Positions 3,219-40,430 of a stretch of 40,430 nt of DNA are shown piece after piece; the stretch's first letter is position 1; the number at the start of each line of letters is the position of its first letter. Made by a program: the position numbers and the translations under genes. Source of the DNA: Escherichia phage MirsaeidiM_Esher7; the sequence record PQ593108.1; one strand, written 5' to 3'. The notes below the pieces were generated by a model. It was not told the DNA's origin, ran no database searches, and worked only from the letters and a program-made list of their open reading frames with translations.

Positions 3219-3272
3219 AGTTGCCCTCCCGGTTTATCAGATTTCACGTAGAGTCTCCTCCACTAGTTAGTG

Positions 3273-3319
3273 TTAACCATAAAGGCCACTACATATAGTA
3301 ATGACCTTGAGTCTAACAC
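3273..3319 (-). promoter_or_regulatory. conserved imperfect hairpin, candidate RNase III processing site (R18.5 position)
   Basis: Element cataaaggccac...atgaccttgagtct immediately after the gene 18 stop; the minus-strand RNA folds into a stem of about 11 bp with G-U pairs; two more copies at 26811 and 34074. Confidence 0.4.
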
Positions 3320-3583
3320 TTATTGAACACCATACCCGGTGTCATTATCTTCCGTAGCCGAGAGCACCTTATCGTACTCTGCGTTCAGGGCCTCCATATC
3401 AGCCAGAGTCTTCTCGTCGACAGACACCTTGCTTAGCACGAAGTTGTGACGAGCCAGTAGCTTCTCAATGGCGTTGTAAAGCTGAGGTGAACGCTTAGTG
3501 TCATCCCGCAGGTCTTGCAGCATGAGTCGAGCACGTTCAGTATCTAGCATCAAGAGGAACTTCTCTAAGTCCATCTGCGTCAT
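3320..3583 (-). CDS. terminase small subunit (T7 gp18-like)
   Basis: 87 aa; ...FLLMLDTERARLMLQDLRDDTKRSPQLYNAIEKLLARH matches recalled T7 gp18; ATGA overlap with holin stop. Confidence 0.9.
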   Translation of the reverse strand: MTQMDLEKFLLMLDTERARLMLQDLRDDTKRSPQLYNAIEKLLARHNFVLSKVSVDEKTLADMEALNAEYDKVLSATEDNDTGYGVQ

Positions 3584-3886: not shown

Positions 3887-6800
3887 TTACTTCTGTTCAA
3901 GAGCAGAAAGTCTGGCTTCGATTCTTTCCAGTTTTCTTCTCTGATAAGCGGCTTCAGCAAAGAAAATTCCGTCAGGCCGAACACCCCACTCCTCACCCTC
4001 TTCGTGAATAACCACCTCGGTGTACACAGGTTCTTCAGTAGTAGTGACATTACCCTCCTCGTCAGTGTGTTCAATGATTTCATTGTGCGAAAATACCGTA
4101 TCGGTCATCCGTGGATACTTGTCATAGCACAGAACAGCATAACGACAATTCGTACTGTTTTCATCCATCAGACCATGTGCAATGAATACATCACGAATTT
4201 GCTGAGCAATAACCCCGAAGTGAATACGAGCATCATTGCCTTTCAGTTGAACAGCATCTAACCACTGGTACATGATGTAGTGAACGTCACCCCAAGCATC
4301 TAGGAAAGCATCATCAAAAACTACCGGCTCTGTTTTCCTCTCCCCGTTAGAAGTAACAATAGGGTTACTTCCAAGGTATGCAGTGGAGAAACGGTTGCGA
4401 GGCCCACCAAGCGCAGTGACGTTATCGTTATAAGGCTTAACATCAGCAGTCTGGAACAGATGCTCAGCTCCGTTGTAAACTATCCGCCTTGAGTCGGTGT
4501 TATTTGCACCATAAAGCGTAATCTGTGCGCCAGAAGAAGAACTGGTACTGTCGCCTCCGCAAAATATGGTGCGCTGCCCTGCAGGGTTATCAGTCGGTAT
4601 AGATTTCCCGATAAACCCATATTCACCTTCCATTAAAACTTCAGAGCGAATGTTACTACTGGTGCTGGCTCTAATGGTCACATGACCTAAACCCAAATCC
4701 CCTGTAAATTCCATTGGCGCAGGAACAGTGCGAATCCCATTCGTATCAAAAAACACGGGAACAGCTCTGTTAGGTACAGCACCATACCTGAAATCACGGG
4801 AAACATGATTGCTTGGGCCAATCTTCATTTTGTAGCAATACAAATCTGAGGGATGACCATCCGATTTGAATGGGTCCTTCGCTGAGTTATCTCCATATGT
4901 CCATGGGTTAAAATGGTCCTCTCCACCAAACATGTAGTAGATGTAATTATCCTTCACAACTACCGAACCAACACCTACACCTGAGTTAACTATTCCGCCC
5001 TGATAAATCTGGTCAGTGATGTTAACCCATTCAATATCATCTGCATTCCAATTGTTTACATTCAAGCGTGCATAGAAGGTGCGAGGATAAGATGCCTTGT
5101 AACGATCATCTGGTGCACCTGCTTCCCATTCATTTTCTGCACGTTCTGAACCAAACATAATAAGGTCATCCCCTACTTTAGCAAAAGGTAATGTAGTATG
5201 ATGAACATTATGTGGAAATCTCAGTGACTCCCAAGTCTGACCTATGTCTCTACTACGATGCAAAGAGCTACCTAGTCTATCCCCACGAGTACCACGAGTG
5301 ATAAGATACAATACACCATCATAGTACTTGATGCACGGTTCTGACGCATCTGGTTCATACTCAGCTGGTATCTGACGACGAACATAGTTAGCTGGATTGT
5401 CGAAAGCATTAGGGAAGTAGAAGAGTCCAACTTCGCGTGGAGCTACATCGCCTTGATGATAACCCATAACAAAGCCATTGTTATCAATAGTAGCAAAGCT
5501 ATGCACCTCTGTGACACGAGGGATTAGACCAAGGTCTGTCTTACGCCATGGAGACTTATGGAAAGAAGTACCCATGTGCCAATTCTTTCCAGCGTTATTC
5601 AAATCTGAAGTCTGCTGGTTGGATGTAAGAACCGTGAAGTTGTCCTTATCTATTATGGTTGCAACAGTCATATCACCGGATACACCTGTTACCGCAGAAT
5701 TAGAGAAGTTAACAAAATCACCCACGAATAGTCCGTGGTCTGGTACATGTATTGTTGCATATGGCTGATTTGCATCTTTAGTGATACCACCAGTAAGATG
5801 CAGGCTACGAGACATGGGGCGATCCCACAATGCACAATTGGTTAATTCGTTCTTGGCTAAAGTACGTGTTTCAATCATGGCAAACAGACGGTTGCGACAT
5901 ACGCCCATACTCATACAGTGATAGTTCACTGTAGGGTAATCTGGATGCAGATCAGTTAACCACTCTGGAGTAGACCATGTTTGACCATCATCACCAGACT
6001 TAACCCATGATACATGCAGACGACTAACACCATGACGATCGCTACCCATGTAAGGTGCATATATTACATTATCATATACGAACGCTTTATCCTGAGGCCA
6101 CGCATTGTAATAAGGGGTGTCCGTTATTTTGAACAACTCCCCCTGAACAAATTCCTCAGAGGCATAATAAAGAGGTTGTCCGGGAATGCGCTCATAAACG
6201 AAACGAGTGTTGATGAAGCGACTAATGTCAGGCAGGGATGTGACCTTATATGTCTTCCCATTGCCATTAATCTTTTGTCCAACCGGTATGTCGTTTAATG
6301 CGCTCGTTAACGCTGCTGTATCATCAGTGACACCATCCCCTTTAGCACCCCAACCACGAACATCATTTTCATCAAGCCAGCGTGCTCTATGTAATTCAGG
6401 GTAGAGTATTGCCCCTTCCGGGTTTGAAATCTGACTTCTTAAAGCAGCATCACCAACACTAACCCACGCACCTAATCCAATCCCACCAGAAGTTTCAGGA
6501 GTTGAACCAGCAGGAACGTTCTTTGGAAGCGTACCATCCCAGCGGTAATAATCACCATCCTCTTCCCATAGCAGGACCTCGCTCCATGTTGTAACGTTGT
6601 AGCCTTTCTCGAAGGAGCGACGGGTCATATAGCCAATTAGACCAGCTTCCCTGATACTCTCAGCGATTCGGCGTGCTTCGTCCTCGCTATCCTTAGCGTT
6701 GCCAGCAGAGCTACCAGCAGCATCGGCATATTCCTTCGCTAAGTCAACCGTTTGGTCTCGACCTTCTTCTGCAATATGGATAGCCTGAAGCTCTGAATTG

Positions 6801-13342: not shown

Positions 13343-13909
13343 TTAGCTATGACCTGTAGGTGTGCCTTTAGCAGCACTAATCGGTGCAGCACCATCACCA
13401 GAGCTGGACGCTCCAGAGATTGACTTACCAGCAGCGTACCCCTGCATCCCGGCGCTTGCAACATTAAGTGCATGAGCCAGTGGGCTGGTCTTGATGATTT
13501 TACCTTGACCGTGGATAGCAGACTTGGTGTTCTCAATGTTGGCGATACGGTTCCCGAAGATAGCCGCATAGTCACGGTTGTAGCTTTCGGTAATCCCTGC
13601 TCGCTCCTTGACTGTATCTCCTGCGACCTGACGTTCAATCCTGTCCATAGAGTTACCTTCCAGACCGGACTCAGCCACCGCAGCTCGGACCATACCCTGA
13701 TTGCGGATACCGTTGAGCGTGGTCTCTGTCAGTTCAGCCATCTGCTGCTCCTTCAGGTCTCGCTCCTGCATCTTCAGGTTGGCATCAGAGTAATTCATTT
13801 GTTTAATCATCTCCTGAGCCTGACGGTTCTGAGCGTCAATTGCTGCACCTTCGGCCTTGGCTTGTTGAGACGCGGACATAGTGGCCCCTGCTACAGCCAT
13901 AACGCCCAT
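13343..13909 (-). CDS. internal virion protein B (T7 gp14-like)
   Basis: 188 aa; size and position between gp13 and gp15. Confidence 0.8.
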   Translation of the reverse strand: MGVMAVAGATMSASQQAKAEGAAIDAQNRQAQEMIKQMNYSDANLKMQERDLKEQQMAELTETTLNGIRNQGMVRAAVAESGLEGNSMDRIERQVAGDTVKERAGITESYNRDYAAIFGNRIANIENTKSAIHGQGKIIKTSPLAHALNVASAGMQGYAAGKSISGASSSGDGAAPISAAKGTPTGHS

Positions 13910-17624: not shown

Positions 17625-18799
17625 TTAGTTGTTGGACTCAGCCAGTTTAGCGGCCCTGTTCGCAGCACGAGTACGCGCAGCTTTCTGTTGAGGAGTTAGA
17701 GTCTCCTCTTCAGGTGCAGCCGCTACTGTAGCGACGTTAGGTTGGCTAAAGGTGCTTACGCCGCTGGGCTGAAAACCAGTGCGCCAGCCGCTTCAGGACG
17801 CAGACCACCGTGACCCATAGCGTATTTACCAACAATCAGGTCACCCTGAGCATCTACGTCACGGTCACGTTCCAGCGCCAAGTCACGCAGCTTCACAGTA
17901 CCCACAGCAGAACGGTGAGAGAACAGACCCACAACGTTGTCCAGAGCAACTTTAACATCACCAGCAGCAGTAGCTGGGAAGGCGTGCTTCTGACCAGTCG
18001 CAATAGTGATACCATCGGCACCACGAGTTTCACCAGCACCACCCTGAGTCAAGTGTGGAACTTCAACAACCACGAAGCCCATTACGTTACGGATGTTACC
18101 AGTCTCTGGGTCAATCAGCGCAGCATAGTTAGCAGCGTTCGGCATCAGAGCCGCGAGGATTGCAGAGTAGTTGTCAGGCGTTGTATAGAAATAACGGTCA
18201 CCAGCAGGAACGTAGTTGGAGGTCAGCTTCGCACGAGCAATGGTCAGTTGACCAATTATTGCTTCACCCAGTTTAGCCGGGGTGTTTAGGTCAGCTTTCT
18301 TACCAACTCCAAGTACGGACGCAGTGCCCAGACCAGCGATGTTCTCGTTGGATGCAGCCGGGAGGTTACACAGGATAGCCATTTCAGCCAGCACCGCACC
18401 ATCAGCAGCGATAGCCAGAGCTTCACCCAACTGGTTGGAGTACTCGCCAGCCACGTCGTAGTGGTTCATTGCGTCTTCAATGTCGAAAATCATCACATCG
18501 GCAGTCAGCAGACCATCAATGGTAATCACTTTCTCGGTATGCTTGATACCTTTACGCTTATCGGACAGTCGCTCACCAGGAGCCAGATACACACCAGAGG
18601 TGCGCCCCATGACCGGGAACTGAGCAGACTTACCGTTCTGAATGGTACGGACAATATGCTTGTCAGCAGTTACAGAGCGGCGAGTGAATGCGGTCAGGAC
18701 TTCACCAGCAAATACCTTCAGGAACAACGCCAGAGCGTCGGTACTGGATTTACCTTTACCTTGGTCTATACCAATTTTCTGACCCGGAACGTTTGCCAT
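17625..18799 (-). CDS. minor capsid protein 10B produced by -1 programmed ribosomal frameshift
   Basis: Slippery heptamer G GTT TTC (plus 17771-17777) seven codons before the 10A stop; the -1 frame stays open for 48 codons (QPSGVSTFSQPNVATVAAAPEEETLTPQQKAARTRAANRAAKLAESNN) and stops at 17625-17627, just before the terminator. Same heptamer as I recall for the T7 gene 10 frameshift. Confidence 0.6.
17756..18799 (-). CDS. major capsid protein 10A
   Basis: 347 aa (T7 10A is about 345 aa); downstream of the phi10-like promoter. Confidence 0.95.
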   Translation of the reverse strand: MANVPGQKIGIDQGKGKSSTDALALFLKVFAGEVLTAFTRRSVTADKHIVRTIQNGKSAQFPVMGRTSGVYLAPGERLSDKRKGIKHTEKVITIDGLLTADVMIFDIEDAMNHYDVAGEYSNQLGEALAIAADGAVLAEMAILCNLPAASNENIAGLGTASVLGVGKKADLNTPAKLGEAIIGQLTIARAKLTSNYVPAGDRYFYTTPDNYSAILAALMPNAANYAALIDPETGNIRNVMGFVVVEVPHLTQGGAGETRGADGITIATGQKHAFPATAAGDVKVALDNVVGLFSHRSAVGTVKLRDLALERDRDVDAQGDLIVGKYAMGHGGLRPEAAGALVFSPAA

Positions 18800-24458: not shown

Positions 24459-24619
24459 TAGTCTTTCTCCTCTTCGGCATCAGGTGTAAGAAGCTCACGG
24501 ATGTCAGAAGCACAAGACCCTGACAAGTTCGGGCAATAGCGAGAGGTCTCGTGACCACTCCACCAAGCACTTCTCATAAGGTCTATGACCTCCTGTCTTG
24601 TAAAGGTCTGCTTCTTCAT
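24458..24619 (-). CDS. small hypothetical protein (53 aa) in the gp5.3 slot
   Basis: ATG at 24619 overlaps the DNAP stop (TGATG), GGAAGGAG RBS upstream, stop overlaps the gp5.5 start (TAATG). Product MKKQTFTRQEVIDLMRSAWWSGHETSRYCPNLSGSCASDIRELLTPDAEEEKD. Below the 60-aa cut-off of the supplied ORF track. Confidence 0.45.
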   Translation of the reverse strand: MKKQTFTRQEVIDLMRSAWWSGHETSRYCPNLSGSCASDIRELLTPDAEEEKD

Positions 24620-26790
24620 CAATGACACTCCTTCCACGTTGGTCCAATCTTACCTTCGGTATCAAGGACACATTTAAAGTTATAGAACTCACCAACCTTA
24701 CGCATAGCAAGTTGAGCAATTTCTACTACGCGTTCTGCTAAGTCCTTGTTTTTACAGGCAATTTGTAGCTCATCGTGCACCCATGCCATGTACGCAAAGT
24801 CTCCATCCCAGCCGTGGACATATCCTTCGGCTTCGAGCATACGCTCGGTCTCGACAATCCAGTGCTTACAGACCACAGCACCATCACCTTGAAGTAATGC
24901 GTTAAGTGCTGAGTGTGGAGACCGGATGTGGATGCGTCGACCATCCAAGCCTTTAAGCCAGCGGCGTTTCCACTTCACGATATTCTCACCGTCTACCCAT
25001 TTGGACTCAGAGATTAACGTATTACTCACAGCTTCCCTGAGGTCCTTGATGGCTGGTGTACCCTCAATGAATTTCTTCATCAGGGCCGCACCTTCCTTCT
25101 TACCACCGCCAACTATCAGTCCAATCTTCGCGGCCCCTGCACCATACAGGAACGCATAGATGAACGTCTTGGCGTTATTACGGAAAGCATCGTGGTCGTG
25201 GTTCGACTTATCGCGTTGGACGTTAGGTGCTAACCCAGCGTTGACAGCGTTGGCCCAGTGGATGTCACCTTCTACCACAGTCTTGGCGTATTCACCACCA
25301 TCAAACGGAGCCGCTCGGTTCCCCAGACAACGAAGCTCAAGACCTGAAGCATCCACACCCACTTGAATCCAAGGGTCTGGCTTACCATCCGTCTTGTTCC
25401 AAGCTGCACCGAAAGCACCACGGCAAATCTCACCATACGGAGCACCGTTAGCAGGTACCTGAGCCATGTTTGGTGAACTGTGAGTCGCACGTCCAGTTAC
25501 TGCTCCGCATGGGTTGATTGAACCGTGCATACGTCCGTCTGGACCTACAAGTTTCAACCATGCGTTCTTACCTTCAGCAGCCTGACCTATGCGCTTCTGG
25601 ACTACCAGATACTCACGGACCAGCTCTACGCAAGCCTGAGCCTCTGCGTCCGGTAACTTAACGTGTTCTAACGTCTCGTCATCGACTACAGGTTTCCCGG
25701 TGTCAGTGAAGTCCACAGGCTCCCAGCCACGCTCCATCAGAACTTTCGCTAAGTGGTCCCCGCTTCCCGGATTAAACTCAACGTAAGTGATAGGTGTGAA
25801 CGGCGCTCCCTCCATCGTGTCTCGTGAGTCTAACTCGCAAGGCTCCAGACCTAAGCGTTGAGCTTTGTTCTTCGGCTTCTTGAATACTGACCCGACCTTA
25901 GGATACACGACGCGCGGATACTTCGGAAGGTCCTTGCCTGTCCGTGGGTGCTTTAAAAACTCCTTGCCACCCTTCGGTGCATACCAGCTACCGAAAGTCG
26001 AACGCAGCTTGTCCAGCAGCTCTGCACGTTTGACGGTTAGTTCACGATATAAGCCTTCGACCATCTCGGTGTTCATCGGATAGCCGTTACGCTCCATCTT
26101 CGCACAGGTCCACGCAGCATCATGTTCCAGACGCAACGCATAAATCTGGTCGAAAGCGAACTGTTCAGACTGGAAGTAATACTTGTCAGTCAGGAACTTC
26201 TTGAACAACGCCAGTGTGACCACAACGTCTTGAACGTTATAGTCCAGCATCTCCTGAGACGGGAACAACCATTCGTCTCCAGCCTTATATTCGATACCTT
26301 CAGCCTTGCACTTGGCAACGTAATCGTGTTTGTACTCACCTTTCATCTCACCGAGACGATAGCCCCAAGCCTCAAGAGACTGGCGTCCCATCATCTTAGG
26401 TGGCAGACGACCAGCTTTCACCGCGCCCATGTCTGAGAACTTAATGTTTGGATACATCAAGCGTCCCAGAACTAAGGTATCAATCATCTTATGTTTCGGG
26501 AAGTTAAAGCGTTTCCCAAAGTACAAACGCTTCAGCTTGTCTATAGCCGGGACGTCATAGTTGATACCGTTATGGAATACCAGCATACCATCAGGTGATG
26601 CGGCAATCTCTTCCACTTTATGAACATACTCTTTGAAGCCGCCGACGATACCGACCATCGGAGCTACCCCATACTTAAGGGTCTCATTCGACTCGGCGTT
26701 AATCAGGACCCCACAGTGAAACTGGGAGACTGTATCAAGGAGACCGTTGGTCTCGATGTCAGAACCCCAGATACTCTTAAGGTCAAACAT
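24619..26790 (-). CDS. DNA polymerase (T7 gp5-like, family A with 3'-5' exonuclease)
   Basis: 723 aa; extensive similarity to recalled T7 gp5 (DIETNGLL, QDVVVT, NGAVTGRATH, GIDASGLELRCL, AKTFIYAFLYGAG, DFAYMAWVHDE, terminal ...GPTWKECH); GGAGG RBS. Confidence 0.97.
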   Translation of the reverse strand: MFDLKSIWGSDIETNGLLDTVSQFHCGVLINAESNETLKYGVAPMVGIVGGFKEYVHKVEEIAASPDGMLVFHNGINYDVPAIDKLKRLYFGKRFNFPKHKMIDTLVLGRLMYPNIKFSDMGAVKAGRLPPKMMGRQSLEAWGYRLGEMKGEYKHDYVAKCKAEGIEYKAGDEWLFPSQEMLDYNVQDVVVTLALFKKFLTDKYYFQSEQFAFDQIYALRLEHDAAWTCAKMERNGYPMNTEMVEGLYRELTVKRAELLDKLRSTFGSWYAPKGGKEFLKHPRTGKDLPKYPRVVYPKVGSVFKKPKNKAQRLGLEPCELDSRDTMEGAPFTPITYVEFNPGSGDHLAKVLMERGWEPVDFTDTGKPVVDDETLEHVKLPDAEAQACVELVREYLVVQKRIGQAAEGKNAWLKLVGPDGRMHGSINPCGAVTGRATHSSPNMAQVPANGAPYGEICRGAFGAAWNKTDGKPDPWIQVGVDASGLELRCLGNRAAPFDGGEYAKTVVEGDIHWANAVNAGLAPNVQRDKSNHDHDAFRNNAKTFIYAFLYGAGAAKIGLIVGGGKKEGAALMKKFIEGTPAIKDLREAVSNTLISESKWVDGENIVKWKRRWLKGLDGRRIHIRSPHSALNALLQGDGAVVCKHWIVETERMLEAEGYVHGWDGDFAYMAWVHDELQIACKNKDLAERVVEIAQLAMRKVGEFYNFKCVLDTEGKIGPTWKECH

Positions 26791-26810
26791 GGTTAATCCT
26801 CCGCTTTAGT

Positions 26811-26855
26811 CTAATCATAAAGGCCACTCGCTATGAATGACCTTGAGTCTAGACC
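26811..26855 (-). promoter_or_regulatory. conserved imperfect hairpin, candidate RNase III site (R4.7 position, upstream of DNAP)
   Basis: Second copy of the cataaaggccac...atgaccttgagtct element, with compensatory changes preserving the stem. Confidence 0.4.
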
Positions 26856-27019
26856 TAGAAGTCTGTACGCAAGAAGTGATACATAAACTTCCGGTTAGCT
26901 TTCTTCCATGCCTTAGAGTTGAACCGCTGGTCTCCCAGAATGTTCGACAGGCAGGTTGCTTCATCGCTCCACCATTTGTACATGAACCGATGGTAGCGAG
27001 CTTTAAGTTTCTTTAACAC
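26855..27019 (-). CDS. small hypothetical protein (54 aa, GTG start) between primase-helicase and DNAP
   Basis: GTG at 27019 preceded by GGAGG at 7-nt spacing; basic product (V)LKKLKARYHRFMYKWWSDEATCLSNILGDQRFNSKAWKKANRKFMYHFLRTDF. Position corresponds to the T7 4.x genes. Low confidence. Confidence 0.35.
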   Translation of the reverse strand: MLKKLKARYHRFMYKWWSDEATCLSNILGDQRFNSKAWKKANRKFMYHFLRTDF

Positions 27020-34043: not shown

Positions 34044-34073
34044 TGTTGTAGCTCCAGTTGTTTAGGTTATAGG

Positions 34074-34121
34074 GTTAATCATGAAGGCCACGACTTTGAG
34101 TCATGACCTTTAGTCTAATCC
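34074..34121 (-). promoter_or_regulatory. conserved imperfect hairpin, candidate RNase III site (R1.1 position)
   Basis: Third copy of the hairpin element, between the phi1.1-like promoter and gene 1.1. Confidence 0.4.
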
Positions 34122-34138
34122 TATAGTGATAGTTTAGG
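34116..34138 (-). promoter_or_regulatory. phage RNAP promoter (phi1.1-like)
   Basis: Plus-strand motif tcctatagtgatagtttaggtt. Confidence 0.75.
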
Positions 34139-34212
34139 TTAACCTCTTCTGCGTTGGATTAAAGTGAATACTGCGAGTGCTCCTAGCCACAAGGCCAGTA
34201 ACTGTAGGTCTG

Positions 34213-34428
34213 TCATTTGGCCTGCTCCAGCTTGGACACTGCGTCCTTCAGGTACTTCTCGTGGCTGGACTCGACCAGATCTACAAGAGTCTTGAACGGG
34301 ATGTTAAGCTGCTTGGACATCTCGGTCGGGATGACCGTGGTCTTCACCAGACCCTTGCCGTTGTGTTCTGTTACGGTCACTATTTGAGTCCCACCATTAA
34401 CGCCAGTATGCTTGTGTGCATATTTCAT
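34213..34428 (-). CDS. hypothetical protein directly downstream of the RNAP gene
   Basis: 71 aa; ATG with AGGAGAGAGAG RBS. Confidence 0.55.
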   Translation of the reverse strand: MKYAHKHTGVNGGTQIVTVTEHNGKGLVKTTVIPTEMSKQLNIPFKTLVDLVESSHEKYLKDAVSKLEQAK

Positions 34429-34442
34429 AGCTCTCTCTCCTG

Positions 34443-37124
34443 TTAAGCGAATGCAAAGTCTGAAGACAGAATGTCTTCGATATTCAGTTTACCTTTCTTC
34501 GGAAGCTCAGGCAACTTGTCGCGCTGGCTCTCATGAAGCTGGTATTCAAACTGCTCGTAGAAGTCATGCAGCACATCGTTGTCGCGGTAGGTCTCGACCA
34601 TCGTCTCACGGACACCACGGAACAGATATTCAGCGTCAGCCGGGATGGTCCCGAAGCTATCATGAATCACTGCGAATGACATCACGCCATACTTGCGATG
34701 CGTGTGGACTACAGTCTTGCGTAGGTGACTACCATCTTGTGAGTGGACGAAGTTCGGGCTAATGCCTGACTCCTGCTTGTGCTTGTCCAGCTCTTTCTTC
34801 GTGCCTTTGTTGACGGTAGGCTGAAGGTTGAATGACCCTAAGAACATCAGGTTCAAACGTGTGGTATCCTTCTTGCGGTATTCCTGCCAGACCGGGAAAC
34901 CATCAGGTGTTACCCAGTGTACCGGAAGGCAAGGCTTCAGGATTTCACCAGTCTTCTTGTCCTTCACTTCAGCAGCCAGCAGCTTGGCAGCACCCTGAAG
35001 CCACTTCATCGCGTCAACCGCAGCAACTACGGTCACGCTCACAGCTTCCCAAATCATATTAGCCATGAAGCGAGCCGCTTGGCTTGGCTCGGTGAACATA
35101 GCGCCAGACCCTGAGTCAATCGCTGGCATCACGATGTCCTCATAAACTTGGTCTGCGAAGCCGTACTCTTTCGACCCGTATGCCAGAGTCATGACTGAAC
35201 GCTTAGTGACCTTGCGTGACATACCGTATGTCAGCCACTGACGGGCCAGCTCTCGTGTCCCCAGCTTGATACGTTCGGTAATCTCACCAGTTTTCTTATC
35301 CTCGTGAGTGACCATCTCGTTGTCAGTACCGGTAATCAGCAGGACTTTAAGCTCTTCCTCAATGCGGTCAGACACGATGCGGTAGATGTCTTGGACCTCA
35401 CCGGAAGGCGTCAGGTTTACTGCATGTCCACCGATGTGATCACGAAGCATCGCGCTAAAGTGCTGAATCCCTGAGCATGACCCATCGAACGCTATCGGCA
35501 GTGAGCAGGAGTAAGACAATCCGTGGTGCATTACACCAGCATACTCGAAGCAGAACGCAAGGAAGCAGAACGGAGAGTCTAACTTACCCCACCACTCAAT
35601 GCTGTCCATCGGTGCCTTAGCAGTAGCCATGATGTTGTCGTGGTTATCTTCCACCCACTTGATGCGCTCCTCGAAGGTTACTTTATCAATACCCGCACAG
35701 TTTGCACCGTGGACCTTCAGCCATCTGAAACCGTCAGCACCAATAGGCTTACCGACTGCCAGAGTCAGGAGACCCTTCTGCATGTCGTTACCCTGAGGGT
35801 TGAACATCGGCACAGCGTAGACTCGACCGCGCCAGTCCATGTTGTATGGAAACCAGATGGCCTTGAACTGAGAGAACTTATTCGCTTGGTTGATGATAAA
35901 GCTCAGTGATAATCTGCGTGACTGTCGGGCCTTCTCGCGGCGATAGATACCAGCAGCAGCTTTCTTCCACGCCTTGAGTTCCTCTTCAGTCTCACCAGCA
36001 TAGTCCTCAGGCTTCAGCGGTTCCATCTGAGGGATGTCATCAATAGGCGTGTTGTTCAGCTTCTCGACCATGTTCACCACGTTCAATACCTTCTTGTTCA
36101 CTTTCCAAGGTGTATTTTGAATGATGTTCACAGCGTCATAGACTTCAGGCATGTACACGTCTTCATAACGTGCTACCGCAGACTTAGACCCTAAGCGAAT
36201 CAATGGTAACGGTCTGCGACCTTTGGCCCAGTACCCACCGCCTACTACACCAGTCCACGGTTTAGGTGGAACGACGCAAGGCTGATAGACTGGCGCAATA
36301 CCAGCAAGGCTGAATCCACGTTGTGCCATCTTCTTTACCCAGAAGTCTGACAGGTGGACCATCTCAACGTCAGCCGCCGCATTGCCAGCACCATAACGCT
36401 TAAGCTCTACCAGTTGTGTGGACTGGATGACAATCTCGAGCATCTTGATGCCAACGTGTACCGCTTCGGTAGGACTCCAAGTCCCCCACGCATCTTCCAG
36501 TTGGCCTTGCTCCAGCATGGATGCCTCTACAGCTTGCATGTAGGCTTTCTTGTAGGATGCCCCAGCTCGCTTGTTCAAGTTCTCAGCTATCGCCTTCTTG
36601 AAGTGCTCCTTCTCCTTGTCACGGATGCGACCGAAGCGGATTTCGTCCTCAAGTGTGCGACCTAACGCTGAGGCCATAGGTGTAATCGGTATCCCTTCAG
36701 GCTTGACCAGCTTGGAGAGTATGACCTTCAGTATGATAACCGCAGCGGACTCACAGGAGATGCGAAGAGAGCGGTCCTTGACGGCCTTCTCTTCAGTGCT
36801 CAACGTGGTGAACGCTACGCTAGGACGAGAGGTTGACAGCTTCCCGTCTGGACCTTCGTGCCACTCCTTGACGGCTTGCGCAATCTTAGGAACCAGAGTC
36901 TGCATCAAAGGCTTGGCGACCTGATTGTCTGCCAGTTCCCCTCGCTCAGTCTGTCGCTCAAGGTTCTTGATGAAACGTCGCTCGCCTTCAGTGTATGCCT
37001 CATGCTCAAGCTGAAGCTGCTTGACTGCAAGGTCTTGCCCGTAGTGGTCGGCAAGCAGGTTAAACGGCTCAATTGCGTTCGACACATCAGTGAAGTCGTG
37101 TTTGTCAATAGAGATGACGCTCAT
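34443..37124 (-). CDS. DNA-directed RNA polymerase, single-subunit (T7 gp1-like)
   Basis: 893 aa; near-collinear with recalled T7 RNAP (FNLLADHYG, PVYQPCVVPPKPWTG, IWFPYNMDWRGRVYA, DGSCSGIQHFSAML, VHSQDGSHLR, terminal DILSSDFAFA). Confidence 0.98.
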   Translation of the reverse strand: MSVISIDKHDFTDVSNAIEPFNLLADHYGQDLAVKQLQLEHEAYTEGERRFIKNLERQTERGELADNQVAKPLMQTLVPKIAQAVKEWHEGPDGKLSTSRPSVAFTTLSTEEKAVKDRSLRISCESAAVIILKVILSKLVKPEGIPITPMASALGRTLEDEIRFGRIRDKEKEHFKKAIAENLNKRAGASYKKAYMQAVEASMLEQGQLEDAWGTWSPTEAVHVGIKMLEIVIQSTQLVELKRYGAGNAAADVEMVHLSDFWVKKMAQRGFSLAGIAPVYQPCVVPPKPWTGVVGGGYWAKGRRPLPLIRLGSKSAVARYEDVYMPEVYDAVNIIQNTPWKVNKKVLNVVNMVEKLNNTPIDDIPQMEPLKPEDYAGETEEELKAWKKAAAGIYRREKARQSRRLSLSFIINQANKFSQFKAIWFPYNMDWRGRVYAVPMFNPQGNDMQKGLLTLAVGKPIGADGFRWLKVHGANCAGIDKVTFEERIKWVEDNHDNIMATAKAPMDSIEWWGKLDSPFCFLAFCFEYAGVMHHGLSYSCSLPIAFDGSCSGIQHFSAMLRDHIGGHAVNLTPSGEVQDIYRIVSDRIEEELKVLLITGTDNEMVTHEDKKTGEITERIKLGTRELARQWLTYGMSRKVTKRSVMTLAYGSKEYGFADQVYEDIVMPAIDSGSGAMFTEPSQAARFMANMIWEAVSVTVVAAVDAMKWLQGAAKLLAAEVKDKKTGEILKPCLPVHWVTPDGFPVWQEYRKKDTTRLNLMFLGSFNLQPTVNKGTKKELDKHKQESGISPNFVHSQDGSHLRKTVVHTHRKYGVMSFAVIHDSFGTIPADAEYLFRGVRETMVETYRDNDVLHDFYEQFEYQLHESQRDKLPELPKKGKLNIEDILSSDFAFA

Positions 37125-37193
37125 ACTTAAAGTCCTTGTTATTAGTCTTTCACTTAAAGTCTCTTTGGTCTTTCACTTGGAGTCTTAGACCTT

Positions 37194-37216
37194 GAGTCCT
37201 ATAGTGATAGTTAAGT
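37194..37216 (-). promoter_or_regulatory. phage RNAP promoter-like motif immediately upstream of the RNAP gene
   Basis: Plus-strand motif cctatagtgatagttaagtc with a divergent initiating region (GGACUC rather than GGGAGA); +1 is about 75 nt upstream of the RNAP ATG. Confidence 0.5.
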
Positions 37217-37221
37217 CATAA

Positions 37222-37482
37222 TTACTTGCATATCAGTGGGTTAGCGTGAAGATGACTGAAGTCACCGTGAGTCGTGTGCTTGATGGTTGACCGTTGGTCT
37301 ATCGCCTTCCAGCCTGAGACTAAAAGTTTACCATCGTCAGTGCTCGGTCGTCCACCATACGCCAGACACATCAGTTCGGACTTATGGCCCTCAGCCTCCA
37401 TGCGGCGGTGTAAGAACACGTCACGCTGTATTTGCTCTACACTGCTACGGATAGATGGTCTGTTAATGTATACGGTTTTCAT
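37222..37482 (-). CDS. hypothetical early protein
   Basis: 86 aa; ATGA overlap with the upstream nuclease gene stop. Confidence 0.5.
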   Translation of the reverse strand: MKTVYINRPSIRSSVEQIQRDVFLHRRMEAEGHKSELMCLAYGGRPSTDDGKLLVSGWKAIDQRSTIKHTTHGDFSHLHANPLICK

Positions 37483-37931
37483 TGTTGGTGTTCCCTTAAG
37501 TATTTGATTGCGTTGGATAATACCGCCTGTGAATCGTTAAACTTACCGAGGGCAAGATTACACTCCGTGCAGAGTAGACCTCGTACCTTGCCTGTTACAT
37601 GGCAGTGGTCTACCGCAAGACGCCGCTGGAGTGCGTCAGGATTTCCACATATTGCGCACACTCCTCCTTGCTCCTGAAGCATTTCTGCGTACTGAGCGGA
37701 TGTGATGCCATACCGTTTTTTTAGAGTTGAGTTAAGACACGCGTCCTTGTACGCATCTGACTTACGGTAGCGGCTTCTTAGCTCTTGCGCCATTTTCCCA
37801 GATTTATATTGAGCGATTTTCTCGTTTCGACACTTCTTGCAGTGGCCTTGGTAGCCATCTTTGTTCTTGGAGTCCTTATAGAACTCGCTCTTGGGTTTTA
37901 ATTCTCCACACTTACTACAAGTCTTACACAT
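37479..37931 (-). CDS. endonuclease VII-family (HNH-type) nuclease with N-terminal zinc-ribbon
   Basis: 150 aa; motif GGVCAICGNPDA...LAVDHCHVTGKVRGLLCTECNLALG is the Endonuclease_7 signature; N-terminal CKTCSKCG...HCKKC zinc ribbon. Confidence 0.8.
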   Translation of the reverse strand: MCKTCSKCGELKPKSEFYKDSKNKDGYQGHCKKCRNEKIAQYKSGKMAQELRSRYRKSDAYKDACLNSTLKKRYGITSAQYAEMLQEQGGVCAICGNPDALQRRLAVDHCHVTGKVRGLLCTECNLALGKFNDSQAVLSNAIKYLREHQQ

Positions 37932-38128
37932 TACAGTTTGCTCCCAAGTGTTGCTATATCCCAGACGTTCGCTAAATTGCGCACGAATCGTCCGTTAGGC
38001 TGACGTACAGTCCAGCGGCCCAGACGTACATAGTTGAATTTGTAGACTTTACGCGCCTTGTTAATGTCTCTCATCAGCACGTAGGCGATAAGTACATAGC
38101 TTATGGCTATCAATAGTGCAAGACTCAT
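37931..38128 (-). CDS. hypothetical early protein with N-terminal hydrophobic segment
   Basis: 65 aa; MSLALLIAISYVLIAYVLM then basic tail; TAATG overlap with downstream gene. Confidence 0.45.
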   Translation of the reverse strand: MSLALLIAISYVLIAYVLMRDINKARKVYKFNYVRLGRWTVRQPNGRFVRNLANVWDIATLGSKL

Positions 38129-38131
38129 AGT

Positions 38132-38299
38132 TTATCCCGCCAGTCCAATCCACATCAAGATACCGCGCACGACACCTACCGGAGAGAATATAATGTCCAC
38201 TGCCAGCCAGCCCAATCGTAATGCGTTACCATCAGTGAGCACCGCAGTAAGCCAAGATAGAATAATGGTTACGTAAAGTGCGATGATTGTAAATTTCAT
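38132..38299 (-). CDS. small hydrophobic early protein (55 aa)
   Basis: Start placed at the internal ATG (AGGAG RBS) rather than the upstream GTG at 38341; two predicted hydrophobic segments. Confidence 0.45.
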   Translation of the reverse strand: MKFTIIALYVTIILSWLTAVLTDGNALRLGWLAVDIIFSPVGVVRGILMWIGLAG

Positions 38300-38365
38300 A
38301 GTAATTCTCCTATCAATGTAAGTGGTAATCTTTGAGGCCACCTATCAGTCGTGACCTCTCGTCTA

Positions 38366-38515
38366 TCACTCAGTGTGTAAGCTGTCGTGCATACGTTTGC
38401 GGCGCTTATAGACCACCTTCAGGAGACGCATAGACTCCTCGTGGTTTAATCGCCCGGTCTTGACCATAAGCCGGGCGATGGTGACGTGGTGCTGGCAGAG
38501 ACCATAAGTTACCAT
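38366..38515 (-). CDS. small hypothetical protein (49 aa) translationally coupled to the Ocr-like gene
   Basis: ATG overlaps the Ocr-like stop (TGATG), GGAGG within the upstream coding end; basic product MVTYGLCQHHVTIARLMVKTGRLNHEESMRLLKVVYKRRKRMHDSLHTE. Below the ORF-track size cut-off; low confidence. Confidence 0.35.
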   Translation of the reverse strand: MVTYGLCQHHVTIARLMVKTGRLNHEESMRLLKVVYKRRKRMHDSLHTE

Positions 38516-39039
38516 CACTCGCAGTCCTCCTCAGCAGCCTCAGGATCGAACACTACGTTATCGTTGATGTCTTCGACCTGCATGTGAAAACCTTCCTCAT
38601 AGAGTTCTTTTGCACATGCAATAGCCTCGTAAAGTGATACAGCTGCCTCAATTATCTCGCCTGTTCTAGTGTCAACTACCCAATATTCAGCCTTTTCGTC
38701 TTCCTCTTCAGCCTTTTCGTCGCTCTCTTCAGCCTCAAACCAGACTACATCCGAGCTATTAGACACATCGTTATACAGTGCCTCATAGATGCGAGCTTGT
38801 AGTATACGCGTTACGTCCTTGGTCTCAGGCATCAGCCCAGAGTCTTCGAACTCGTGGTCTATACCATCAGCAGCCATCACCGTAAAAATCTCGTGGTAAT
38901 AGTGCGGAACCTGACCGTCTACGACCTCATGCAGCGCATCGCTGTAGTCATCGCCTTCAGCTATTTCGTCGTACTGAATACGCTCATTGAACAGCTTAAC
39001 GGTTTCAGCCAGCAGCTCATAGTATGCGTTACGTTCCAT
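38515..39039 (-). CDS. ocr: Ocr-like anti-restriction DNA-mimic protein (gp0.3) with C-terminal extension
   Basis: N-terminal 118 aa closely match recalled T7 Ocr (VPHYY..IF.VMA..GID.EFEDSGLMP.TKDV.RILQARIYE); an additional 56 acidic residues follow (174 aa total vs about 117 in T7). Confidence 0.85.
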   Translation of the reverse strand: MERNAYYELLAETVKLFNERIQYDEIAEGDDYSDALHEVVDGQVPHYYHEIFTVMAADGIDHEFEDSGLMPETKDVTRILQARIYEALYNDVSNSSDVVWFEAEESDEKAEEEDEKAEYWVVDTRTGEIIEAAVSLYEAIACAKELYEEGFHMQVEDINDNVVFDPEAAEEDCE

Positions 39040-39066
39040 AGTTATATCCTCTCAAAGTTAATATGT

Positions 39067-39120
39067 GTTAGTGACTATCAGTCAGGCCGCTATGAGTCTA
39101 ACGACCTGTAGTTAATCACT
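39067..39120 (-). promoter_or_regulatory. imperfect long hairpin E1, candidate RNase III site upstream of the Ocr-like gene
   Basis: Arms gttagtgactatcagtcagg and cctgtagttaatcact are imperfectly complementary; a second copy lies at 39384-39443. Confidence 0.4.
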
Positions 39121-39121
39121 C

Positions 39122-39376
39122 TCAGTTAGCGAAATAAGGAGCTAAGACGCCCGCTGTAGAACTCACGGTTATCTGTGAGTCTATCAGGTAGGTCTCGTTG
39201 TTTATACGCACAGTATCTACGCTGTAGTTGCTGAACGGCTTGCTTGAGACCTTACGCACTACCACACGGTGACGCGCTCCTGTCATCTCTTTAAGCTGAA
39301 TCCACGCATAACCTTTAGTGTTCACGAATACTTCATTGCGATTAGTGATTGTGCTTAAGTGTTTCATAGTGTCCAT
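39122..39376 (-). CDS. hypothetical first early protein, upstream of the Ocr-like gene
   Basis: 84 aa; ATG with AAAGGA RBS; bracketed by hairpins E1 and E2; T7 has no gene before 0.3. Confidence 0.55.
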   Translation of the reverse strand: MDTMKHLSTITNRNEVFVNTKGYAWIQLKEMTGARHRVVVRKVSSKPFSNYSVDTVRINNETYLIDSQITVSSTAGVLAPYFAN

Positions 39377-39383
39377 CCTTTAA

Positions 39384-39443
39384 GTTAGTGACTATCAGTC
39401 AGGGCCTTCAGATGTAGACTCAAAGGCCCTGTAGTTAGTCGCT
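39384..39443 (-). promoter_or_regulatory. imperfect long hairpin E2, candidate RNase III site (R0.3-like)
   Basis: Shares the 20-mer gttagtgactatcagtcagg with E1; inner stem CAGGGCC/GGCCCTG is perfectly complementary; immediately 5' of the first early gene RBS. Confidence 0.4.
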
Positions 39444-39554
39444 ATCGGCGCACATTAAGAGTTTATCCAGATTGTTAAAGAGCATTCCCTTCAGTCAGAG
39501 GACTTCAGGTAGACCATTTCAGTGTTGGTCATCACCGCGTTGTTTCGATGTGGT

Positions 39555-39590
39555 ACATATTACTTTAAGTCGTTACTGCCTGTCAACTAC
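39555..39590 (-). promoter_or_regulatory. sigma70-type early promoter candidate (T7 A3-like)
   Basis: Minus strand TTGACA, 18-nt spacer, TAATAT, followed by GTACCACAT as I recall downstream of T7 A3. Confidence 0.4.
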
Positions 39591-39695
39591 TTTCTGTCGG
39601 TTGCCTGTTGTTCGTATGTCTTACAGGCTGACTACTTAACCGGACCGGACCGGCGTCTTCACTATCCGGTTGTTGCCGTGTCGTGTTGACGGAAG

Positions 39696-39730
39696 CTATT
39701 AAGCCATAGCCTAGACCTATAGTCAATAGG
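39696..39730 (-). promoter_or_regulatory. sigma70-type early promoter candidate (T7 A1-like)
   Basis: Minus strand TTGACT, 17-nt spacer ATAGGTCTAGGCTATGG, CTTAAT; layout resembles T7 A1. Confidence 0.35.
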
Positions 39731-39837
39731 TAATTTGAAATAATATTGATTAAGCTATCGTCGGCCCCATGGTGTAAGAGGATATAGTCTTTGACTAACA
39801 TGTCTTTGACCTTAAGTCTATAGCTCTGTGTCTAGTA

Positions 39838-39941
39838 ACTGTAGGTCTATGACTGTAGGTGTTGGTGTCTTATGGTTATGAGACTGTAGGTTAGTGAGAC
39901 TGTAGGTGTAGGACTGTAGGTTAGTGAGACTGTAGGTGTAG
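39838..39941. repeat. array of ACTGTAGGT 9-mers including a perfect 30-bp tandem duplication
   Basis: Six copies of actgtaggt between 39838 and 39937; the 30-mer gactgtaggttagtgagactgtaggtgtag occurs twice in tandem (39882-39911, 39912-39941); two further copies near 40228-40251. Confidence 0.6.
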
Positions 39942-40375
39942 GACGTAATGTTATACTATAACACTATACAGATAGAGACTCAAAGAAGACCTATAGCCCC
40001 TACCTATCGTCCTTCCCTAAGCCATAGCCTAGACCTATCGTTGACCTGAAGTCTTGACCATCGGTCCAACCTTATGATAGACTGGCTGTGACTGCAAGGA
40101 GCAGTAACGGGTAGGGCCTTTGGTATGGACTTAAAGAGGGCCTATGGGGAGACTTGAGGTTCTTGAACTGTGAGATGTGGTCTCAAACTTTTGGTCCAAA
40201 ACTCATCGAAGACTGTGGTGACAGCTACTGTAGGTCAAGGACCGTAGGTCAGGCGACACTAGGATAGACCAATAAGTAGGATGACCCTAAGTGAGCTTCT
40301 CTTAAGGTGTTACCTAAAGTCCTTGACTACAGTAGCTAAGGTCAGTAGAGTAGCGTCAGCTATGAACTGACCTTA

Positions 40376-40430
40376 GGTCTTCAATGGGCGTATTCCCACT
40401 CCGTCTTATAGTCCTCTTCAGAGAACGAAC
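40376..40430. repeat. terminal direct repeat copy, identical to 1-55
   Basis: Exact 55-bp match to window start. Confidence 0.8.

What the first reader, a model, noticed from the sequence alone, without database searches (positions are those of the whole stretch)
39067..39443. Extra first early gene bracketed by duplicated hairpin elements
An 84-aa ORF (39122-39376) lies upstream of the Ocr-like gene, where T7 has none. It is flanked by two related imperfect hairpins (E1, E2) that share an identical 20-mer. This looks like an inserted gene that brought or duplicated an RNA-processing site; first-expressed genes in T7-like phages are often anti-defence or host-takeover factors.
Basis: partly seen in the sequence, partly recalled or inferred. 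Interest (0 to 1): 0.5.

Follow-up and report, generated by a model that had tools for sequence, protein, structure and literature searches.

The report
Hairpin-bounded early gene cassette (gp0.2)
The extra first gene of this K1F-like coliphage is the already annotated but uncharacterised gene 0.2, and it sits in a swappable cassette whose two borders are copies of the RNA hairpin that phage T7 uses as its first RNase III cutting site.

Summary
The window is a complete K1F-like (Kayfunavirus) genome read backwards, so its genes lie on the minus strand.

- **The gene.** The ORF is K1F gene 0.2 (PHROG 10124). It most likely starts at the second ATG (39367), giving 81 aa. It is under purifying selection, has no known function, and a confident AlphaFold model matches no solved fold.
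- **The hairpins.** E2 (39380-39447) and E1 (39063-39124) fold only as minus-strand RNA. They belong to one hairpin family with four further copies in this genome. A covariance model built from this family recovers eight T7 loci, which lie where I recall the mapped RNase III sites. E2 is the positional orthologue of T7 R0.3.
- **The cassette.** Close relatives have 0, 1 or 2 small genes at this spot (gp0.2, a 58-aa gene, a 92-aa gene). All but one of these genes (the 51-aa gene in L022) is followed by its own near-identical hairpin. Two phage groups carry gp0.2 and the 92-aa gene in opposite order. Relatives without the gene differ by one clean 317-bp indel ending in the repeated 20-mer.

RNase III cleavage and an anti-defence role remain untested. 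The result is a modest new variant of known things.

The parts
39557..39586 (-). Sigma-70 early promoter, homologue of T7 A3 (TTGACA-18-TAATAT). The predicted start is near 39549, about 100 nt upstream of hairpin E2.
   Evidence: Promoter scan, 10/12 match. The downstream GTACCACATCGAAAC matches T7 GTACCACATGAAAC at the A3 start, nt 750.
39380..39447 (-). Hairpin E2 ('A-type'), the positional orthologue of the T7 R0.3 RNase III site. It has an 8+1-bp lower stem (with a C.A mismatch as in T7 R0.3), an asymmetric internal loop and an upper stem of at least 10 bp.
   Evidence: Fold -25.6 kcal/mol, z -3.9. CM R1 score 71.6 bits. The conserved 5' flank GCTCTTTAACAATCTGG is shared with T7.
39384..39403 (-). 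20-mer CCTGACTGATAGTCACTAAC, copy 1. It forms the 3' side of the internal loop and the lower stem of E2. By homology to T7 R0.3, the cut is predicted between 39397 and 39396.
   Evidence: Exact repeat. CM alignment to T7 R0.3. The T7 cleavage position is from my memory of Dunn & Studier 1983.
39376..39380 (-). Shine-Dalgarno AAGGA for gene 0.2, 8 nt before the ATG at 39367.
   Evidence: Sequence read directly.
39122..39367 (-). Gene 0.2 (81 aa; the ORF is also open from the ATG at 39376, giving 84 aa). A small, basic, all-beta protein of PHROG 10124, function unknown.
   Evidence: PHROG match 1.5e-39. 97.6% identical to K1F gp0.2. pN 0.21 against pS 0.74 versus the Klebsiella phage homologue. 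AF2 pLDDT 90.
39063..39124 (-). Hairpin E1 ('B-type'), which ends the cassette. It has the same architecture as E2, a fully paired lower stem and a different upper stem (GGUCGUUA/UAGCGGCC).
   Evidence: Fold -23.8 kcal/mol, z -3.8. CM R1 score 75.1 bits. The same hairpin follows three unrelated genes in relatives.
39067..39086 (-). 20-mer copy 2, in the 3' half of E1. The cut is predicted between 39080 and 39079, which would give a 317-nt processed gene 0.2 mRNA.
   Evidence: The cut position is an inference, as above.
38515..39039 (-). The ocr (gene 0.3) homologue, 174 aa, which follows the cassette. Its leader is the same as in relatives that lack the cassette.
   Evidence: Pfam ocr 8.7e-32. 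PHROG 2568. Leader comparison.
38314..38374 (-). Third hairpin of the same family, in the position of T7 R0.5 (after the 50-aa gene that follows ocr).
   Evidence: CM R1 score 56.9 bits, E 7e-12.
34064..34126 (-). Family member between the 71-aa ORF 34213-34428 (which follows the RNA polymerase gene) and the next small gene (R1.1-like position), abutting a phage promoter copy.
   Evidence: CM R1 score 34.3 bits. ORF map. Promoter repeat at 34119-34139.
26801..26860 (-). Family member just upstream of the 723-aa ORF 24619-26790, which I take from its size and position to be the DNA polymerase gene.
   Evidence: CM R1 score 34.3 bits. ORF map.
3262..3324 (-). Family member between the 87-aa ORF 3320-3583 and the 149-aa ORF 2769-3218 (R18.5-like position by T7 gene order).
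   Evidence: CM R1 score 47.5 bits. ORF map.

Best explanation
The region is a one-gene early cassette of a K1F-like phage.

**Layout.** Host RNA polymerase starts at the A-type early promoters and transcribes, in order:
1. hairpin E2, the R0.3 orthologue;
2. gene 0.2;
3. hairpin E1;
4. ocr.

**RNA processing (inferred).** Both hairpins belong to the T7-group RNase III processing-site family. Host RNase III is expected to cut once in the 3' side of each internal loop. That would release a roughly 317-nt monocistronic gene 0.2 mRNA carrying a protective 3' hairpin. The ocr mRNA would keep exactly the 5' end and leader it has in phages without the cassette.

**DNA-level behaviour (inferred).** The repeated hairpin also serves as a patch of homology: 53 bp between B copies and about 30 bp between A and B copies. 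Phage recombination can use this homology to insert, delete, replace and reorder such gene-plus-hairpin units. The module that moves is therefore the same as the processed mRNA.

**The protein.** Gp0.2 is a small, basic, all-beta accessory early protein. It most likely acts by binding a host component (host takeover or counter-defence), but its target is unknown.

**Status of each step.** Shown here: the anatomy, the homology, the covariation and the cassette polymorphism. Inferred: RNase III cleavage, the recombination mechanism and the protein's role.
For: **Identity**
- The window is a Kayfunavirus genome.
- The ORF is K1F gp0.2 / PHROG 10124.
- It is under purifying selection: pN 0.21 against pS 0.74 versus a Klebsiella phage homologue, and dN/dS 0.3-0.7 among close relatives.

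**Hairpins**
- They are stable only on the transcribed strand.
- In 66 distinct family members 95.6% of cells are paired. 15 of 19 pairs show double (compensatory) changes. Slid controls give 27-50% pairing (a smaller unfitted alignment is).
- All six window hits are on the minus strand. The three outside the early region lie between the main ORFs (the one at 26801-26860 overlaps small unsupported ORFs).
- The model hits eight T7 loci, at 850-907, 1425-1486, 3098-3155, 5845-5902, 6410-6459, 13851-13909, 18499-18580 and 36814-36873. These are where T7 R0.3, R0.5, R1, R1.1, R1.3, R4.7, R6.5 and R18.5 lie, from memory of Dunn & Studier 1983. That R0.3 lies between A3 and gene 0.3 is stated in PMC3276506 for T3.
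- There is no terminator-like U tract.

**Cassette behaviour**
- Single hairpin, no gene: L004, L005, L006, L008, L010, L013, L014.
- A-0.2-B-ocr: the window, K1F and L012.
- A-58aa-B-ocr: L009 and L011.
- A-92aa-B-0.2-B-ocr: Vec13 (L007).
- A-0.2-B-92aa-B-ocr: PM129 (L055).
- The same units precede a different downstream gene in ST31 and GA2A.
- The indels are clean: 317 bp and 349 bp.
- L012, L055 and L056 carry a chimeric A/B hairpin.
- A Klebsiella phage has the gp0.2 gene followed by a homologous B hairpin with compensatory stem changes.
Against: - No experiment shows RNase III cleavage in any Kayfunavirus. The T7 cleavage coordinates are recalled, not retrieved.
- T7 R0.3 was one of the 11 training sequences of the model. 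The other seven T7 hits were not in the training set.
- The 71-sequence alignment was fitted to the model, which biases the pair counts upward.
- Recombination at the hairpins is inferred from end points and arrangements. It was not observed.
- L022 carries a 51-aa gene after the A hairpin without a second hairpin, so the rule is not absolute.
- Gp0.2 homologues in N4-like, Phapecoctavirus and Ermolevavirus phages lack such hairpins.
Confidence: 0.75

Rival explanations
1. The two hairpins are only a local tandem duplication of the R0.3 site. The ORF between them is chance open reading frame, not a gene.
For: The 3' halves of the hairpins are identical and lie 317 bp apart. The ORF has no Pfam family.
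Against: - The protein family is conserved in five phage lineages down to about 38% identity with the frame intact.
- pN is far below pS.
- PHROG 10124 matches at 1.5e-39.
- A confident AF2 fold (pLDDT 90) is shared with other phage proteins.
- The upper stems of the two hairpins differ. The B type recurs behind unrelated genes.
Confidence: 0.03
2. The hairpins act as transcription terminators or attenuators, or as generic mRNA-stabilising stem-loops. They are not RNase III substrates.
For: They are stable GC-containing stem-loops at gene ends. Cleavage was not tested.
Against: - No U tract follows either hairpin, and the terminator scan found none.
- ocr and the RNA polymerase gene lie downstream and need read-through.
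- The conserved asymmetric internal loop and its flanking sequence align with the hairpins at eight T7 loci, which lie where I recall the mapped T7 RNase III sites.
Confidence: 0.1
3. The repeated hairpin is a DNA-level target for a site-specific enzyme (a homing endonuclease or recombinase) that moves the cassettes. RNA processing is incidental.
For: Cassette end points coincide with the repeat. An endonuclease VII/HNH-like gene lies in the same early region.
Against: - Pairing is kept through G-U pairs that would be A.C mismatches on the other strand, and E1 folds only on the transcribed strand.
- The same hairpin family sits at conserved intercistronic positions genome-wide, where there is no gene variation.
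- The cassettes carry no recombinase, and K1F lacks the Endo VII gene yet has the cassette.
- By my own knowledge, general homologous recombination in T7-type phages works on short homologies. That suffices to explain the pattern.
Confidence: 0.07
4. Gp0.2 is not a host-directed factor. It serves the phage's own early gene expression, for example as a small nucleic-acid-binding protein acting on phage RNA or DNA.
For: - The protein is basic (10 K/R against 5 D/E, read from the sequence).
- It is all-beta.
- It shows weak, unconvincing similarity to small beta-barrel modules.
Against: - It is absent from many close relatives that are otherwise collinear, so it cannot be needed for the core programme.
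- It moves between unrelated phage families with different transcription strategies.
Confidence: 0.15

Closest known systems
T7 RNase III processing site R0.3, and the other T7/T3 early and late R sites
   Same: - The position matches: after the last early sigma-70 promoter and before the first early gene.
- The conserved upstream flank is the same.
- The two-stem hairpin with an asymmetric internal loop is the same, including the C.A mismatch in the lower stem of E2.
- A model built mostly from the Kayfunavirus hairpins finds eight T7 loci, which lie where I recall the mapped sites.
   Different: - Here the site occurs twice in tandem around an added gene.
- The second copy has a distinct upper stem and an identical 3' half.
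- Cleavage has not been tested in this genus.
Gene 0.2 of coliphage K1F (CAJ29341, record AM084414); PHROG 10124
   Same: - It is 97.6% identical in protein sequence.
- It has the same position and the same flanking hairpins.
   Different: Nothing of substance differs. The RefSeq K1F record does not annotate the gene. No function is assigned anywhere.
PeSL mobile regulatory cassettes of T4-type phages (Arbiol et al. 2010, PMC2839356; Comeau et al. 2014, PMC4122927)
   Same: - Short conserved regulatory stem-loop motifs are repeated between small non-essential early ORFs.
- Insertions, deletions, replacements and reorderings between close relatives end in the motif.
   Different: - PeSLs are an early promoter plus a terminator stem-loop.
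- Here the motif has neither a promoter nor a terminator. It is an RNase III-type processing hairpin inside one operon.
- Mini-circles were not looked for.
- The phage family is different.
Phage accessory regions holding counter-defence genes next to ocr (Silas et al. 2023, bioRxiv 10.1101/2023.04.06.535777)
   Same: It is a variable set of small genes in a fixed hotspot adjacent to a known anti-restriction gene.
   Different: Gp0.2 peptides are not in that paper's supplementary files. No phenotype is known.

Membership tests
T7-group RNase III processing sites | An irregular hairpin of about 20 bp: a lower and an upper stem separated by an asymmetric internal loop. | tested here: met
   MFE folds of E1 and E2. 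The 19-pair structure is 94.7% paired in 11 sequences and 95.6% in 66 sequences, against 25-50% when slid.
T7-group RNase III processing sites | The structure is maintained by compensatory changes, showing RNA-level selection. | tested here: met
   5 of 10 upper-stem pairs show double changes in an unfitted MAFFT alignment. 15 of 19 pairs do so in the model-fitted alignment (note the fitting bias).
T7-group RNase III processing sites | Lies on the transcribed strand in intercistronic positions. | tested here: met
   All six window hits are on the minus strand. The three outside the early region lie between the main ORFs (the one at 26801-26860 overlaps small unsupported ORFs). The plus-strand fold of E1 is no better than shuffles.
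T7-group RNase III processing sites | Sequence and structure homology to experimentally mapped T7 sites. | tested here: met
   Model R1 finds eight T7 loci. They coincide with R0.3, R0.5, R1, R1.1, R1.3, R4.7, R6.5 and R18.5 as I recall them from Dunn & Studier 1983. R3.8 and R13 were not found. T7 R0.3 itself was in the training set.
T7-group RNase III processing sites | Cleaved by host RNase III at a defined bond in the internal loop. | not testable with these tools
   This needs 5'-end mapping in rnc+ and rnc- hosts, or in vitro cleavage.
K1F gp0.2 / PHROG 10124 | Full-length profile match and high identity to the named protein. | tested here: met
   PHROG 10124 at 1.5e-39 over residues 4-84. 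97.6% identity to K1F gp0.2.
K1F gp0.2 / PHROG 10124 | The same genomic position: first early gene, upstream of ocr. | tested here: met
   K1F nt 785-1030, before gene 0.3 at 1114.
PeSL-type mobile regulatory cassettes | A repeated conserved motif flanks variable small ORFs, and indel or replacement end points fall in the motif. | tested here: met
PeSL-type mobile regulatory cassettes | The motif is a sigma-70 early promoter plus a terminator stem-loop. | tested here: not met
   There is no promoter-like or terminator-like site in either hairpin. The region works like PeSL cassettes but is not a member of that class.
PeSL-type mobile regulatory cassettes | Excised mini-circles form by recombination between neighbouring motifs. 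| not testable with these tools
   This needs outward-facing PCR on infected-cell or virion DNA.
Intrinsic (Rho-independent) terminators | A GC-rich stem followed by a U tract. | tested here: not met
   0 terminator-like sites in 38900-40430. The hairpins are followed by ACACAU... and UUAAAGG.
Known protein families (Pfam, NCBIfam, PADLOC, PDB) | A significant sequence or fold match of gp0.2. | tested here: not met
Bacterial SH3 (SH3_5) domains | Domain-length profile similarity. | tested here: inconclusive
   The gp0.2 profile hits the last beta-hairpin of five SH3_5 repeats in one protein. hhalign covers only 31 columns with probability 32%. No Pfam SH3 hit appears for any of 31 family members.

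The most novel reading that the evidence does not exclude
In the T7 group, RNase III processing hairpins may double as the recombination joints of a cassette system. In that system each mobile unit equals one mature monocistronic mRNA (leader, gene and 3' hairpin). Phages could then add, drop and reorder first-expressed accessory genes without disturbing the processing or translation of their neighbours. Gp0.2 would be one such cargo: a new-fold counter-defence or host-takeover protein shared by at least five lineages of enterobacterial phages.
Probability: 0.35. Interest if true: 0.6.

Novelty: new variant of a known kind. Interest (0 to 1): 0.38.

Why it matters
- **How early accessory genes turn over.** If the hairpins are both processing sites and recombination joints, this explains how T7-type phages change their earliest-expressed accessory genes while keeping ocr and RNA polymerase expression intact.
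- **A practical rule for engineering.** A payload could be inserted as a leader-gene-hairpin unit at R0.3.
- **A candidate for functional screens.** Gp0.2 is a compact, strongly conserved, phage-only protein with no fold match. It is expressed first, next to ocr, which makes it a reasonable candidate for counter-defence or host-takeover screens.
- **Limits.** The gene itself is already annotated, and the hairpin class has been known since the T7 sequence.

Tried and rejected
- **Rfam.** Scan of 36900-40430 at E up to 1: only a chance snoRNA hit, so no curated family covers these hairpins.
- **Sequence libraries for gp0.2.** Pfam, NCBIfam, PADLOC and a PDB profile search gave nothing usable.
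- **Fold searches.**
  - Foldseek against PDB, using the first, poor model, gave nothing.
  - BFVD returned only uncharacterised phage proteins.
  - AFDB50 was not available.
- **SH3_5 lead.** From a multi-repeat amidase hit; rejected as unconvincing.
- **Kissing-loop idea.** The apical loops of E1 and E2 are complementary over 8 nt in the window, but over only 3-6 nt in K1F, Vec13, PM129, L009 and GA2A, with no co-variation. It is not a conserved feature.
- **Literature.**
  - No paper holds both 'K1F' and 'gp0.2'.
  - No paper combining K1F or Kayfunavirus with RNase III was informative.
  - The K1F genome paper is not held.
  - Gp0.2 peptides are absent from the Silas et al. supplements.
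- **E. coli genomes.** The cassette DNA has no match in 5,426 complete genomes, so it has no prophage or chromosomal source.
- **Terminator reading.** Rejected.

Full report
**What the window is.**
- The 40,430-base window is a complete genome of a K1F-like phage (genus Kayfunavirus, T7 group), presented as the reverse complement.
- Its first and last 55 bases are identical.
- The single-subunit RNA polymerase gene (34443-37124), the ocr homologue (38515-39039) and all 13 phage-promoter-like repeats lie on the minus strand.
- The best DNA matches are Kayfunavirus genomes at 86-94% identity.
- The genetic left end is therefore at the right of the window, and the finding sits at the very start of the early operon.

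**Checking the observation.**
- The ORF 39122-39376 (minus strand) is there.
- The Shine-Dalgarno AAGGA overlaps the first ATG and lies 8 nt before the second one at 39367.
- K1F record AM084414 annotates the 81-aa form as "gene 0.2, gp0.2 protein", and all close database homologues are 81 aa. The protein is therefore most likely 81 aa.
- The 20-mer CCTGACTGATAGTCACTAAC occurs exactly twice in the genome, 317 bp apart. No other site matches within three mismatches, and 0.01 matches are expected by chance.
- Both elements fold well as minus-strand RNA (-25.6 and -23.8 kcal/mol, z about -3.9). The plus-strand version of E1 is no better than shuffled sequence.
- T7 indeed has no gene between its hairpin and gene 0.3.

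**What the hairpins are.**
- E2 follows the same conserved stretch (GCTCTTTAACAATCTGG...) that precedes the T7 hairpin at nt 850-907, downstream of an A3-like sigma-70 promoter. E2 is thus the positional orthologue of the T7 R0.3 site. R0.3 is the RNase III site between promoter A3 and gene 0.3 (stated in PMC3276506 for T3).
- I aligned E1, E2, relatives' hairpins, a third window hairpin and T7 R0.3. The consensus has a lower stem of 8+1 bp, an asymmetric internal loop and an upper stem of 10 bp.
  - It is 94.7% paired, against 25-46% when the partner is slid.
  - It has seven pairs with double changes.
- A covariance model (R1) finds six copies in the window, all on the minus strand:

| Window position | Place in the gene order |
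|---|---|
| 39380-39447 (E2) | before gene 0.2 |
| 39063-39124 (E1) | before ocr |
| 38314-38374 | after the small gene behind ocr |
| 34064-34126 | beyond a 71-aa ORF that follows the RNA polymerase gene, before the next small gene |
| 26801-26860 | before a 723-aa ORF that I take to be the DNA polymerase gene |
| 3262-3324 | between an 87-aa and a 149-aa ORF, the R18.5-like position by T7 gene order |

- In T7 the same model finds eight loci. As far as I recall the coordinates of Dunn & Studier 1983, these are R0.3, R0.5, R1, R1.1, R1.3, R4.7, R6.5 and R18.5. Seven of them were not used to build the model.
- Over 71 hits in related loci (66 distinct), 95.6% of cells pair and 15 of 19 pairs show compensatory changes. 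That alignment was fitted to the model, which flatters the count.
- Neither hairpin is followed by a U tract, and the terminator scan finds nothing.
- Rfam has no family for them.
- I therefore file E1 and E2 as members of the T7-group RNase III processing-site family. The defining biochemical feature, cleavage, is untested.

**What the comparative data add.** I fetched 31 IMG/VR loci through the ocr protein, 16 through the 20-mer, and several GenBank records. The interval between the first hairpin and ocr is polymorphic in a very regular way:

| Arrangement | Genomes |
|---|---|
| A hairpin, then ocr (no cassette) | L004, L005, L006, L008, L010, L013, L014 |
| A - 0.2 - B - ocr | the window, K1F, L012 |
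| A - 58-aa gene (PHROG 20418) - B - ocr | L009, L011 |
| A - 92-aa gene (PHROG 9817) - B - 0.2 - B - ocr | Vec13 (L007) |
| A - 0.2 - B - 92-aa gene - B - ocr (opposite order) | PM129 (L055), 22664UKE3-2 (L056) |
| Same units in front of a different downstream gene (174 aa, PHROG 11084, replacing ocr) | ST31, GA2A |

- The seven genomes with no cassette have the same ocr leader as the window.
- The B hairpin (GTGATTAACTACAGGTCGTTAGACTnATAGCGGCCTGACTGATAGTCACTAAC) is nearly identical behind three unrelated genes. The stop codons of the 58-aa and 92-aa genes overlap its first bases.
- Pairwise alignment shows single clean indels: 317 bp against L004 and 349 bp against PM129. Their ends fall in the repeat.
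- L012, L055 and L056 carry a chimeric first hairpin, with the B-type 5' arm on an A-type upper stem.
- A T7-like contig (L025) has the 92-aa family between a T7-type R0.3 hairpin and a second hairpin before ocr.
- A Klebsiella phage has a gp0.2 homologue (68% identical) as its first early gene. It is followed by a homologous B hairpin whose upper stem differs by compensatory changes.
- One exception is L022, which has a 51-aa gene without a second hairpin.

**How it most likely works.**
- Each unit runs from just after ...CACTAAC, through a gene-specific leader and Shine-Dalgarno sequence, the gene, and the next hairpin.
- If RNase III cuts where it cuts T7 R0.3 (in the 3' side of the internal loop, ...U^GAU..., from memory), the unit is exactly one processed mRNA. 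For gene 0.2 that mRNA is about 317 nt and keeps the hairpin at its 3' end.
- The downstream ocr mRNA would retain the same 5' end and leader whether or not a cassette is present. This would insulate ocr expression from the insertion.
- At the DNA level, the repeated hairpin gives 53 bp (B-B) or about 30 bp (A-B) of homology. The end points, the swapped order, the chimeric hairpin and the identical 20-mer are all what recombination within the hairpin would leave.
- The direct repeats also predict easy loss of the gene, which fits its patchy presence.
- Status: the anatomy and the polymorphism are shown. Cleavage and the recombination mechanism are inferred.

**The protein.**
- Gp0.2 is basic (10 K/R against 5 D/E) and all-beta.
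- Its family is tiny: 41 clusters at 90% identity and 17 representatives at 50% identity among 1.84 billion proteins.
- Homologues sit in the early regions of unrelated enterobacterial phages:
  - Klebsiella T7-likes;
  - Ermolevavirus (PGT2, phiKT);
  - N4-like Gamaleyavirus, 2-3 kb from the left end;
  - about 150-kb Phapecoctavirus.
- In the three non-Studiervirinae lineages (Ermolevavirus, Gamaleyavirus, Phapecoctavirus) there is no R1-type hairpin nearby.
- Non-synonymous divergence is far below synonymous divergence: pN 0.21 against pS 0.74 versus the Klebsiella homologue.
- With distant homologues added, AlphaFold2 gives pLDDT 90.
- Pfam, NCBIfam, PADLOC and PDB sequence searches are empty. 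A weak SH3_5 lead did not hold up.
- The cassette has no counterpart in 5,426 complete E. coli genomes.
- Of the records that match the 2-kb region, 59 are Salmonella phages. Only one Salmonella phage record carries the gene. This hints at host-dependent usefulness.
- My best guess is a stoichiometric binder of a host component, acting in takeover or counter-defence. This rests on position and distribution only.

**Comparison with what is known.**
- The gene is already annotated (K1F gene 0.2) and belongs to a PHROG of unknown function.
- The hairpin class has been known since the T7 sequence.
- I could not find any description of the gene-plus-hairpin units behaving as interchangeable, reorderable cassettes.
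- The closest concept is the PeSL cassettes of T4-type phages (PMC2839356, PMC4122927). These work alike at the DNA level, but they are promoter-terminator motifs, which these hairpins are not.
- I therefore rate the finding a new variant of a known kind and of moderate interest.

Noticed in passing
window 1-55 and 40376-40430: The two ends of the window are identical over 55 bases. The window is therefore a whole genome with a terminal overlap, either part of a terminal repeat or an assembly overlap.
   Followed up: no
window 38515-39039 (-), especially 38686-38727: The ocr homologue is 174 aa, but the Pfam ocr domain covers only residues 4-94. The C-terminal part is an acidic extension with an internal 21-nt repeat (EKAEE-type).
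   Followed up: no
window 37479-37931 (-): A 150-aa endonuclease VII/HNH-like gene sits in the early region just before the RNA polymerase gene. K1F has no gene of this kind there. It is possibly a mobile nuclease insertion.
   Followed up: partly
window 39090-39100 and 39415-39425: The apical loops of E1 and E2 are complementary over 8 nt (UAGACUCA / UGAGUCUA; 0.2% of shuffles reach this). The match drops to 3-6 nt in K1F, Vec13, PM129, L009 and GA2A, so it is not conserved.
   Followed up: yes
L044 (rc 1578-2102), L045 7250-, L047 134-, L039 1310-: In several relatives ocr is replaced, behind the same hairpin, by a 174-aa protein of PHROG 11084 (MKLIGKGAFTKCYL...). Its function is unknown.
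   Followed up: partly
L055 (PM129) 2776-3083: A further copy of the A-type hairpin sits at the R0.5 position. It precedes a 75-aa, Cys-rich gene (PHROG 32657) that the window lacks. Cassette turnover is therefore not limited to the R0.3 site.
   Followed up: partly
L012 2088-2155; L055 and L056 1279-1346: The first hairpin in these phages is chimeric: a B-type 5' arm (GTGATTAAC) joined to an A-type upper stem. This is what a crossover inside the hairpin would produce.
   Followed up: partly
L054 (PGT2) 1196-1462 and 2001-2249: The Ermolevavirus PGT2 carries homologues of both the 92-aa cassette gene and gp0.2 close together in its early region, without R1-type hairpins.
   Followed up: no
window 39874-39944: A tandem array (30-nt unit, 2.1 copies; 16-nt sub-period GGTTAGTGAGACTGTA) lies between the genome end and the early promoters. 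A 24-nt direct repeat lies at 39700-39723 and 40018-40041.
   Followed up: no
window 34119-34139 and 34064-34126: A phage-promoter repeat directly abuts, and overlaps by a few bases, the hairpin that lies beyond the 71-aa ORF after the RNA polymerase gene. This resembles the T7 phi1.1/R1.1 arrangement.
   Followed up: no
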